A stretch of DNA of 64,000 nucleotides from contig NC_079238.1 in the NCBI RefSeq assembly GCF_027921745.1, positions 2,170,001-2,234,000 of the forward strand. The letters are read 5' to 3'. Shown here piece after piece: positions 51,207 through 53,873 of this stretch. The position numbers were made by a program, and so were the translations under genes. How positions within the stretch are numbered: position 1 is the stretch's first letter; every line of letters starts with the position of its first letter. Below the pieces are notes generated by a model. It was not told the DNA's origin. It saw only the letters and a program-made list of their open reading frames with translations, and ran no database searches. The DNA comes from Schizosaccharomyces osmophilus. Taxonomy: Eukaryota.

Positions 51207-51330
51207 GTCTACGGCCACACCTAGGCGAAAACACCAGTTCCCGTCGGATCACTGCAGTTAAGCGTCTGAGAGTCTCCTTAGTTCAATACTGTGGTTGGAG
51301 ACAACATGAAAATCCGGGATGCTATAGGCT
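51207..51330 (+). rRNA. 5S rRNA gene, degenerate copy (probable pseudogene)
   Basis: GTCTACGGCCACACCTAGGCG...TAGGCT followed by a T-run. Differs from the 53755 copy by 7 substitutions and a 5-nt insertion (TCAAT). TATA about 30 bp upstream. Confidence 0.92.
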
Positions 51331-51866
51331 TTTTGCAATTCTTGTTCTTTTGTATGCAAGCATCCTGAAGAGTAATGAAAAGACCGGCGGACATCATGAC
51401 AAAAAATGCTTTACTTTCCAACATAAAGATATGCATTTCCAATCCCTTGTTAATTATCATTCAAAGAAACAGCATGGTTGTTTTGCCAAATGTTCCTTTG
51501 TTTACTTTTTGTAATAAACGACGACTCTTTTGAATTATACTATTACGAAAAGTTGCAATGAAAAACCAACGTTGAATAATCGTAACGAGGACTGTGACCA
51601 GTCAGTGACATAATGTCGCTGCTTTTATGAATTAAGACATGCGAAAAGCCATTACCAAGATTTTTTCAAAGTCGTATCTTTGGTTTTAAGGGAACACTCG
51701 TGTTGCAAGATTAGCTTGCTTTTTAAGCAAGGTCCAATTCCTTTTTCTGACAGAATTGTGAAGAGCGGAACCAGTTCCTACGGACTTTTCTCGGCGATTC
51801 AAAAGTTGATTTCGTTTAGAGGGTAAATATCGGTGCTATTTTTTGGTTTGAATTGCCATTGTAAAT

Positions 51867-53052
51867 ATGAAAAACAAATATACTCCTATTTCAGATTCTG
51901 ATGACTCTTCCAAAACGCTCAATGATGAAAAGTCAGATACGCATTCTGCAGATGGTACGCCTCCTCCGTATTCAGGTAAGATTAGTTGAAATAGAAAGGA
52001 AAGTTTGATTCTTTGTACCCTTGTTGGAACCGTTCATGATGGAAGAATCATGCTTGTTTATTTATTTGTTGGGCTTGAAATTAATAACCTTGTCGAGAAC
52101 TGTCAGCAAACATAATAGACACCTCTATCCTTTTCACAAACAAAGAAATATTACTAATACATTCATTAGCTTCAAATAAATTTATTGATTTAGAAATGGC
52201 TGATGGATCCGCTCAAAATTCCGCCCAAGATACTGTTAATAATACTAGGTCGAGTTCGATGGATAAGTGGCAGATAATAATGTACTTGTTGTTTTTTACA
52301 TCTTTTGTGTATATTATATTTTATGCTATTCTTCTTGTGTTATTTTTCACTTCCAAGGTTTCTGTGAATGCACAAGCCCTTTGGGGGCTTTCTGCTGGCT
52401 GTGCAGCATCCTTTGCATTGTTTCTGTTTGGTAAGTTAGCTATATCTTTTATTTTAAATGATCTAATAAGTATTAGCAATAACTCAAATGCCTAAAGAAT
52501 GGTTCACGCAGGCCAAAAAAGGGCTCACGCAAGCTGGAAGATTAACCAAAAACGTATTGTCAGCTATGTGTATCTCAGTATTATGTGTGTGTTTTCTCGA
52601 CGTCCTCGGTTTCACCGTGTATTATGCTGCAAAGAAGTTCACAGGATTTGAAAAGATAAACAATAATTTTTTCTATGCTGTTTGCTTTGTTAACTTTGTC
52701 TTGTTTCTTTATTTGACGAGTATGTCATACTCCCGTGAAATGTTCTAACTGTTCTAGTGAATGCAAATGCGCGTGAACGACTTAGATTAGTAGTCGTCGA
52801 TATAGGAAACGGTATAGGAAACGGAATAAATGGCTTAGGAAACGGCATAAATGGCTTGGGAAACGGAATAAATGGCTTGGGACACGGCTTGGGAAATGCT
52901 GTGGATCATATGTTCGGTATGTACACTTGGTAAATGCTTCCTATCACAAGGCGTTATTAACCAATTCAAAAGGAACAAATCGAGGAGATGAAGCACCTCG
53001 TAACGAAGAAATTGAACTTCAACCTCTTGCTGAGCAAAGGGCTGAAGTTTGA
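51867..53052 (+). CDS. wtf: wtf-family meiotic driver (poison-antidote), 5 exons: 51867-51975, 52170-52430, 52477-52719, 52758-52916, 52973-53052; 283-aa long isoform, 238-aa isoform from ATG 52196
   Basis: Exon 1 MKNKYTPIS...TPPPYS (PY motif); exon 2 FIDLEM followed by TM segments; exon 4 IGNGINGLGN repeats; ends RAEV*. All four introns are GT-AG with branch sites, and the frame is intact. Flanked by 5S rDNA. Confidence 0.93.
52802..52900 (+). repeat. Coding 21-bp/12-bp tandem repeat in wtf exon 4 ([I/L]GNGING)
   Basis: Three 21-bp units at 52814, 52835 and 52856, flanked by 12-bp partial units at 52802, 52877 and 52889. Confidence 0.9.
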
Positions 53053-53754
53053 GTTCTACCGAAGCCGCTTTCGTTCTTTACATTCGCTCCTTCTTTGGAA
53101 ACATTGATGTCAATTGCAGTCTACCAAGTTCCTGTATTCGCTTCCACAAAAGCTTGGATCAGATGAAACCAGCAGACTTTGATTGCTTTTCTCATTTCTC
53201 TTTCATGAATCTTCTTATTCGTTTCACGGCATCGTTCTTTTTCTGCATGAATAGACACCCTTTTTAATGATTATTTAATTATTCTGAGGAAAATACCATC
53301 GTAATTAACTAGTTTTTTCCTCAACACTGTGTCGTGTCTTTCATTAATTGTAAGAACGAAACTGATTACCGCCAGAGGTAAAATTCGTTCACAGCATAGA
53401 AAGTATAAATCTTCAGATTGGAAGAATCGATTGATGTAGTTTAAAACATTGAATTACCGTTTACTTTGGGAGTCAAGTCGACGGACCTTGATTCAAGTAG
53501 TACCCAATTTATATTAAGTAACATTTTCAACCCATAAACTCATACACTCAATTGATGCTCCTGCGACCATTATGTGAATCAATAAAAAAGAGAAAACAGT
53601 GTTTTCAAATATTATTCTTATGATTCGAAAGCATTCACCATTTAGCCATGAAGAATACCAGATAGAACTGAGTTGAATTGGATCTTGTAGTTCATCAAGC
53701 CAAATAAAAGACTGGATCATTATTGTATAAATATCTTTACAGACCGTAACAAAC

Positions 53755-53873
53755 GTCTACGGCCACACCTAGGCGAAAACACCAGTTCCCGTCCGATCAC
53801 TGCAGTTAAGCGTCTGAGGGTCTCGTTAGTACTATGGTTGGAGACAACATGGGAATCCGGGATGCTGTAGGCT
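53755..53873 (+). rRNA. 5S rRNA gene, full-length 119 nt
   Basis: Canonical fission-yeast 5S sequence GTCTACGGCC...GCTGTAGGCT, TATAAA about 29 bp upstream, T-run downstream. Confidence 0.97.

What the first reader, a model, noticed from the sequence alone, without database searches (positions are those of the whole stretch)
51207..53873. Intact wtf spore-killer gene in a 5S rDNA - wtf - 5S rDNA cassette within a housekeeping block
Seen in sequence: five exons splice without a frame break into a 283-aa multi-TM protein (MKNKYTPIS..PPPYS|ASNKFIDLEM..TMs..IGNGING repeats..RAEV*), bracketed by two same-orientation 5S genes. The ORF track shows only two anonymous fragments. Established: wtf genes are single-locus poison-antidote meiotic drivers, and in the S. 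octosporus/osmophilus lineage they associate with dispersed 5S rDNA rather than Tf LTRs. Inference: this copy is a potentially active driver that spread by recombination between 5S repeats. The family is known; whether this particular copy has been characterised cannot be told from the sequence.
Basis: partly seen in the sequence, partly recalled or inferred. Interest (0 to 1): 0.9.

Follow-up and report, generated by a model that had tools for sequence, protein, structure and literature searches.

The report
Known yeast spore-killer gene, 5S-flanked
This is an already catalogued gene (wtf10) of the fission yeast Schizosaccharomyces osmophilus, an intact member of the wtf spore-killer family lying between two 5S rRNA genes; it is predicted to make a poison and its antidote, its killing is untested and likely masked by a near-identical sister gene, so it is an ordinary copy of a known family.

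Summary
The five-exon model gives a 283-aa protein identical to GenBank WBW71640.1. It is S. osmophilus wtf10 / SOMG_01015, syntenic with wtf25 of strain CBS 15792, which De Carvalho 2022 lists as a predicted driver with 5S genes on both sides. I found no functional test of this copy.

(1) Pfam WTF does not hit it, so that refutation test fails on a true member.
(2) The site is old: S. octosporus has a wtf pseudogene there.
(3) A chromosome-2 paralog has a poison region identical at 234 of 241 columns, and intron 1 has only a sub-threshold FLEX motif, so drive is likely masked or weak.
(4) The upstream 5S is degenerate.
(5) A broken DUF999 gene follows the second 5S. Five of six DUF999 copies found lie tail-to-tail with a 5S gene, four of them behind a wtf. 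I found this link in no searched text.

The parts
51207..51330 (+). Upstream 5S rRNA gene (SOMRRNA_29), degenerate: 5-nt insertion and 7 substitutions against the downstream copy; likely a pseudogene that still serves as recombination homology
   Evidence: Rfam 67.6 bits with broken stem pairs; alignment; annotated as 120 nt against the usual 115
51867..51975 (+). wtf10 exon 1: antidote start, with the single PY motif PPPY (aa 32-35, nt 51960-51971)
   Evidence: start equals chr1:2221867 in Jia 2023 Table S4
51976..52169 (+). Intron 1 (194 nt), predicted site of the poison promoter; only imperfect FLEX-like sites (2-3 mismatches of 11 at 52051-52065 on -, 52102-52112, 52132-52142 and 52136-52146 on +)
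   Evidence: the 52136 site corresponds to the published FIMO hit, p=2.5e-5, above the 3e-6 confidence cut-off
52170..52430 (+). Exon 2: in-frame Met46 (ATG 52196-52198) is the predicted poison start (238 aa); two hydrophobic segments
52477..52719 (+). Exon 3: two further hydrophobic segments
   Evidence: intron-2 and intron-3 joints
52758..52916 (+). Exon 4 with the 21-nt (7-aa) repeat array at about 52807-52888, the family's poison/antidote specificity region
   Evidence: repeat family D1; repeat described in De Carvalho 2022
52973..53052 (+). Exon 5 and stop codon
   Evidence: end equals chr1:2223052; intron-4 joint
53053..53293 (+). Likely 3' UTR; a poly-A loose end at 53293 in run X4, which may come from a paralog
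   Evidence: table 7
53755..53873 (+). Downstream 5S rRNA gene (SOMRRNA_30), intact
   Evidence: Rfam 103.8 bits, all stems paired
54322..55131 (-). Broken DUF999-family membrane-protein gene (the annotated SOMG_01016 is its 125-aa stub): likely intron 54692-54633, premature stops at 54756-54754 and 54450-54448; multicopy, tail-to-tail with the 5S gene
   Evidence: divergent contigs stack on it while long unique contigs stop at the cassette edges

Best explanation
This is S. osmophilus wtf10, an intact five-exon wtf gene between two same-strand 5S genes, predicted to make a 283-aa antidote and a 238-aa poison, whose drive is likely masked or weak today. Shown: exon structure, identity, one PY motif in exon 1, Met46 in exon 2, the exon-4 repeats, the flanking 5S genes. 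Inferred from the family: a long transcript gives the antidote, whose PY motif recruits Rsp5/NEDD4 ligases; the ubiquitinated antidote binds the poison and carries it to the endosome and vacuole. A short meiotic transcript from intron 1 gives the poison, which reaches all spores, so spores without a matching antidote would die. Inferred for this copy: the site predates the osmophilus/octosporus split and its sequence has been rewritten by ectopic gene conversion. The chromosome-2 paralog SOMG_03542 likely supplies a cross-reacting antidote, and both sequenced strains carry wtf10, so little transmission bias is expected in crosses between them.
For: Identity with the annotated protein. Published prediction 'DRIVER', 5S on both sides. 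PY-motif mechanism, with a single conserved PY motif in all intact antidotes of this lineage (Zheng 2023 passages). Poison region of P0149 identical at 234 of 241 columns, with the first 174 residues identical. wtf drivers can suppress each other when similar. No confident FLEX motif. Mosaic exons: P0123 matches 84/87 in exon 2 but 40/81 in exon 3; P0127 48/87 and 78/81; P0134 37/87 in exon 2 but 26/26 in exon 5. Syntenic S. octosporus pseudogene wtf47; species split about 16 Mya (abstract).
Against: No toxicity, poison-transcript or drive data for this copy. The paralog differs by 3 extra residues and 2 substitutions at the start of the exon-4 repeat, and repeat mismatches can break poison-antidote compatibility, so masking may fail. 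None of the 31 intact S. osmophilus wtf genes has a confident FLEX motif, and 14 S. octosporus genes make the short transcript without one, so the weak FLEX says little. Of 2 S. osmophilus poisons tested, 1 (Wtf19) was non-toxic; this copy is 72% identical to it and 73% to the toxic Wtf41, which does not decide. Only two strains were compared.
Confidence: 0.5

Rival explanations
1. Active, unsuppressed driver: the poison is expressed and toxic, and the exon-4 repeat difference keeps the paralog's antidote from rescuing.
For: Intact frame, Met46, PY motif and repeats. 4 of 5 non-pombe poisons tested were toxic in S. cerevisiae. 3 of 7 S. octosporus genes tested drove clearly and 2 more weakly. 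Repeat mismatches disrupt compatibility.
Against: Those 7 genes were chosen for high poison-transcript levels. Near-identical paralog. Weak FLEX motif.
Confidence: 0.23
2. Antidote-only in effect: little short transcript is made or the poison is non-toxic, and the gene persists as a suppressor of its chromosome-2 or other paralogs.
For: 17 of 48 intact S. octosporus genes had no detectable short transcript, and a FLEX motif correlates with having one. S. osmophilus Wtf19 poison was non-toxic.
Against: It keeps Met46, unlike the antidote-only paralog P0123, which has Ile there. Classed as 'DRIVER' in print.
Confidence: 0.25
3. Not a wtf gene, or a pseudogene given a chance splice model.
For: No PF03303 hit for this protein at E up to 10. 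The family profile returned no named S. pombe protein among 16 hits. The AlphaFold model is uninformative (pLDDT 43.5).
Against: Identical to the curated annotation. 5 of 14 family members scanned hit PF03303 weakly, best E=1.4e-4, all below the cut-off. Published PSI-BLAST link to S. pombe Wtf. Spliced contigs. Random-mask control 1 of 20000.
Confidence: 0.02

Closest known systems
S. osmophilus wtf10 / SOMG_01015 (CBS 15793; Jia 2023, PMC10085805) = wtf25 of CBS 15792 (De Carvalho 2022, PMC9562144)
   Same: It is this gene: same start, end and strand, identical protein; both 5S genes are annotated. The CBS 15792 counterpart has the same 1186-nt span.
   Different: Nothing in the gene. The degeneracy of the upstream 5S, the masking paralog and the DUF999 neighbour are not discussed in the parts I read.
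S. octosporus wtf25 (SOCG_04480), a proven poison-antidote driver
   Same: Five exons, exon-2 ATG, one PY motif, exon-4 repeats; 56% amino-acid identity.
   Different: It has a perfect FLEX motif, 33 short-transcript reads and no 5S association, and was shown to drive.
S. pombe wtf4, wtf13, cw9 and the suppressor wtf18-2
   Same: Two-isoform poison/antidote logic, PY-motif ubiquitin sorting, homologous C-terminal 7-aa repeat, suppression by antidote mimicry (listing).
   Different: 11-15% identity to the S. pombe FY29033 proteins shown; Tf-LTR-linked rather than 5S-linked; several PY motifs; perfect FLEX motif in verified drivers.
DUF999 family (PF06198), for the downstream gene
   Same: The read-through scores E=4.6e-4; paralogs P0152 and P0169 pass the Pfam cut-off. 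DUF999 genes are known in S. pombe, S. cryophilus and S. osmophilus and mediate recombination at the S. pombe gal cluster (preprint passages).
   Different: Subtelomeric in S. pombe; here interstitial and 5S-linked. They are not the wag genes, which correspond to the separate divergent genes upstream of the wtf.

Membership tests
wtf (octosporus/osmophilus/cryophilus type) | Sequence homology to annotated Wtf proteins | tested here: met
   27 hits, all S. osmophilus 'wtf meiotic driver' or S. octosporus SOCG proteins; the best is identical
wtf (octosporus/osmophilus/cryophilus type) | Five exons, intact frame | tested here: met
   joints for introns 2-4 at family level
wtf (octosporus/osmophilus/cryophilus type) | In-frame alternative ATG near the start of exon 2 | tested here: met
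   Met46
wtf (octosporus/osmophilus/cryophilus type) | PY motif in the antidote-specific N-terminal tail | tested here: met
   PPPY 32-35, the only L/P-P-x-Y in the protein
wtf (octosporus/osmophilus/cryophilus type) | Several transmembrane segments and the exon-4 7-aa repeat | tested here: met
   Four hydropathy peaks of 1.8-2.6; 21-nt repeat
wtf (octosporus/osmophilus/cryophilus type) | Tandem association with dispersed 5S rDNA | tested here: met
   stop-to-5S distance 707 nt against 707-718 at 4 paralogous loci
Pfam WTF PF03303 (model) | Score at or above the gathering cut-off of 25 bits | tested here: not met
   No hit for P0122; 0 of 14 lineage members reach the cut-off and 5 of 14 hit weakly. 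The model does not cover this lineage, so this is not counted against family membership.
Active wtf driver | Confident FLEX (Mei4) motif in intron 1 | tested here: not met
   Best sites have 2 mismatches of 11; published p=2.5e-5. True of all 31 intact S. osmophilus genes.
Active wtf driver | Short poison transcript from intron 1 in meiosis | not testable with these tools
   Only contigs were available, which cannot show starts
Active wtf driver | Toxic poison, rescue by own antidote, biased transmission | not testable with these tools
   Needs experiments; none found in print for this copy
wag (for the downstream gene SOMG_01016) | Divergent gene between the upstream 5S and the wtf | tested here: not met
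   It is convergent and beyond the downstream 5S; no wag is listed for this locus; paralogous loci have a separate upstream divergent gene
DUF999 (for the downstream gene) | PF06198 match | tested here: inconclusive
   This broken copy scores 20.6 bits, below the cut-off of 25; its 68%-identical paralog P0152 scores 30.8

The most novel reading that the evidence does not exclude
The mobile unit here is 5S-wtf-5S-DUF999. In S. osmophilus the DUF999 genes, PY-motif membrane proteins of unknown function, form a second passenger family that spread to interstitial sites by the same 5S recombination route as wtf. They are themselves drive-related (wtf-like drivers or suppressors sorted by the same ubiquitin pathway). 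The positional link is shown for 5 of 6 copies found; the drive-related function is speculation resting on shared short motifs and one weak Pfam WTF hit (E=0.022), against negative profile tests.
Probability: 0.07. Interest if true: 0.7.

Novelty: already known. Interest (0 to 1): 0.2.

Why it matters
The gene itself adds nothing new: it is one of about 30 intact, catalogued wtf genes of S. osmophilus. It is a convenient natural test pair: wtf10 and its chromosome-2 paralog differ in the poison region by only 4 substitutions and a 3-residue insertion at the repeat, which asks directly how little change makes a duplicate escape its parent's antidote. The side observation, that DUF999 genes sit tail-to-tail with 5S genes behind wtf genes, would extend the 5S-mediated spread model to a second family.

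Tried and rejected
No whole genome was held, so paralogous loci were read from published tables, not from DNA.

Pfam scan of single exons: no WTF hit in 5 exon-level queries; none for the full protein or for P0149.

Family profile against 1.84 billion representatives: 16 hits. The 9 newly looked up were all S. octosporus or S. osmophilus, 6 were already named so, and 1 (P0165, 67 aa) was not looked up. I could not reproduce the link to S. pombe Wtf beyond weak Pfam hits.

AlphaFold models were too poor to search with (pLDDT 43.5 and 54.4), so no fold search was run. The ESM Atlas gave no answer.

Sequencing runs: no RNA holder listed. Intron 1 had no joint and little cover in X3/X4; this is no evidence either way on the poison transcript. 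Summed contig depth was not used as copy number.

Folding energies of both 5S copies did not differ from shuffles (z 0.05 and -0.80), so they say nothing on degeneracy; that rests.

Downstream gene as wag: rejected. DUF999 as a Wtf homolog: hhalign probability 1.3%; pairwise E=0.018 over 37 N-terminal residues; Wtf-profile scores of 5 DUF999 proteins lay within the range of shuffles, with 5 to 181 of 200 shuffles scoring as high. Not supported.

Empty single-5S site: S. cryophilus is marked 'yes' in sheet 1p and 'no' in sheet 1q of De Carvalho's file and was left out of their analysis; unresolved.

A search for 5S promoter literature gave nothing I used.

Full report
OBSERVATION. Rfam finds two + strand 5S genes, at 51207-51330 (67.6 bits) and 53755-53873 (103.8 bits). 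Between them, exons 51867-51975, 52170-52430, 52477-52719, 52758-52916 and 52973-53052 join to 852 nt and give 283 aa. All four introns are GT..AG and phase 1, with branch-point-like pentamers 12-15 nt from the acceptor. The same mask dropped at random in the window was open 1 time in 20000. The protein has one PY motif (PPPY, 32-35) in exon 1, Met46 early in exon 2, four hydrophobic peaks and a 21-nt repeat in exon 4. Contigs of runs X4 and X3, laid at 95% likeness, skip introns 3 and 4 exactly; X4 also skips intron 2 and has a poly-A end at 53293. The tool lists these runs as 'DNA?' by guess; that they are RNA is my inference from the joints. The shorter sides of the joints are 21-41 nt and paralogs share the junctions, so this supports the family's splicing, not this copy alone. 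No intron-1 joint was listed.

IDENTITY. [quoted passage not shown] Jia 2023 gives 5.57 Mb for S. osmophilus chromosome 1 and kgd2 at 2226606-2227931, an offset of 2,170,000 from the window. [quoted passage not shown] An exon-2 search returned 27 proteins, all S. osmophilus wtf or S. octosporus SOCG entries; the best, WBW71640.1, equals my spliced model letter for letter. De Carvalho 2022 lists the CBS 15792 counterpart as 1186 nt, 5S on both sides, no wag, 'DRIVER' by prediction. Both 5S genes are annotated. Pfam WTF does not hit this protein; 5 of 14 lineage members hit it weakly and none reaches the cut-off. This fits the 11-15% identity to S. pombe Wtf proteins and the need for PSI-BLAST in the original work.

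MECHANISM. From the family: the long transcript encodes the antidote, whose PY motif binds Rsp5/NEDD4 ligases; ubiquitination routes it, with bound poison, to the endosome and vacuole. All intact antidotes in this lineage carry one conserved PY motif (Zheng 2023). The poison is the exon 2-5 product. For this copy none of these steps has been tested in the texts I searched: only S. osmophilus wtf19 (non-toxic) and wtf41 (toxic) were assayed, and 'SOMG_01015' occurs in no main text in the library.

Three things lower the odds of visible drive. First, intron 1 has no FLEX site better than 2 mismatches of 11, and the published hit is below the confidence threshold; however, this holds for all 31 intact S. 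osmophilus genes. Second, paralog P0149 on chromosome 2, which I match to SOMG_03542 by chromosome and identity, has a poison region identical at 234 of 241 columns. The differences are 4 substitutions and a 3-residue insertion at the start of the repeat. Similar wtf genes suppress each other, but repeat mismatches can break compatibility, so this cuts both ways. Third, both sequenced strains carry a wtf at this site. I put masked or weak drive at 0.5, antidote-only in effect at 0.25, unsuppressed drive at 0.23.

HISTORY. The locus is in complete synteny with S. octosporus wtf47, a pseudogene between two 5S genes, so a wtf likely sat here before the split about 16 Mya. Independent insertion at the same 5S is not excluded. 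The present sequence is a mosaic: different paralogs are nearest in different exons (P0123 84/87 in exon 2 and 40/81 in exon 3; P0127 48/87 and 78/81; P0134 37/87 in exon 2 and 26/26 in exon 5). This matches the published gene-conversion pattern. The stop-to-5S distance is 707 nt here and 707-718 nt at the four paralogous loci compared, as expected of a duplicated unit. The upstream 5S has a 5-nt insertion and 7 substitutions, several breaking stem pairs. From recalled knowledge the insertion falls inside the internal Pol III promoter, so the copy is likely a pseudogene that still offers homology.

THE DOWNSTREAM GENE. Beyond the second 5S, long unique contigs do not resume until about 54870, and divergent contigs stack on 54134-55162. 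This stretch holds a minus-strand gene, 55131-54322, that aligns at 80% over all 249 residues of SOMG_01244. It has a likely 60-nt intron and two premature stops. It matches DUF999 (E=4.6e-4), and two paralogs pass the Pfam cut-off. Six S. osmophilus copies were found; no S. octosporus protein was hit, in agreement with a 2026 preprint that finds DUF999 only in S. pombe, S. cryophilus and S. osmophilus.

Using published coordinates, 5 of the 6 copies lie tail-to-tail with a 5S gene 373-760 nt away. Four of those 5 have a wtf on the other side of that 5S (wtf10, 11, 12, 19). The sixth, SOMG_03856, has no 5S near and has an S. cryophilus orthogroup partner. The copies are not independent events, and the protein search may have missed others. 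They are not wag genes: three of these loci have a separate divergent upstream gene where the paper lists a wag. All are annotated 'hypothetical'. Searches for 'DUF999' (9 papers listed), 'DUF999'+'wtf' (2 papers, listing only) and 'wag genes' showed no description of this link in what I read. The proteins share PY motifs, several hydrophobic segments and, in two copies, a 7-residue C-terminal stretch with Wtf, but profile tests found no homology.

WHAT I READ. PMC9562144: abstract, sections 5, 6 (first part), 7, 9-12 and 16, passages, and rows or parts of Supplementary file 1; no figures. PMC10085805: abstract, sections 18, 23 and 29, and rows of Tables S4, S5 (entries 25-142), S10 and S12; the file was cut and Table S20 was not seen. 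PMC11892871: passages and section 17. PMC10721834, PMC13160552, bioRxiv 2026.03.02.708787 and 2025.12.28.696746: passages. PMC6283613: search listing only. Unseen figures and supplements, among them De Carvalho Figure 3 supplements and the preprints' supplements, may already show the DUF999 neighbour.

VERDICT. A real, correctly read, already known gene. Interest 0.2, mostly for the paralog pair as a test case and the 5S-linked DUF999 family.

Noticed in passing
window:54322-55131 (-): Broken DUF999-family gene (SOMG_01016). 5 of 6 S. osmophilus copies found lie tail-to-tail with a 5S gene, 4 of them behind a wtf; not wag. Not found described in the texts searched.
   Followed up: partly
window:51207-51330 (+): The upstream 5S is degenerate. 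Several other 5S entries in the published table are also longer than 115 nt, including the one upstream of the chromosome-2 paralog (125 nt), so upstream copies may decay often.
   Followed up: partly
window:50159-50911 (-): SOMG_01014, hypothetical in S. osmophilus, S. octosporus and S. cryophilus, occupies the position of S. pombe mis20/eic2 (SPBC776.16, between rrp7 and kgd2), which is listed without orthologs. It may be a diverged ortholog; no Pfam hit, homology not tested.
   Followed up: no
protein P0123 (chromosome 3): Paralog with exon 2 nearly identical to wtf10 (84/87) but Ile in place of the poison Met; likely the published antidote-only wtf16 of CBS 15792 (78% identity).
   Followed up: partly
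window:51495-51505 (-): FLEX-like site (2 mismatches of 11) upstream of exon 1, between the 5S and the antidote start.
   Followed up: no
window:14774-14846 (+) and 26958-27071 (+): A tRNA gene and the U5 snRNA gene; ordinary.
   Followed up: no
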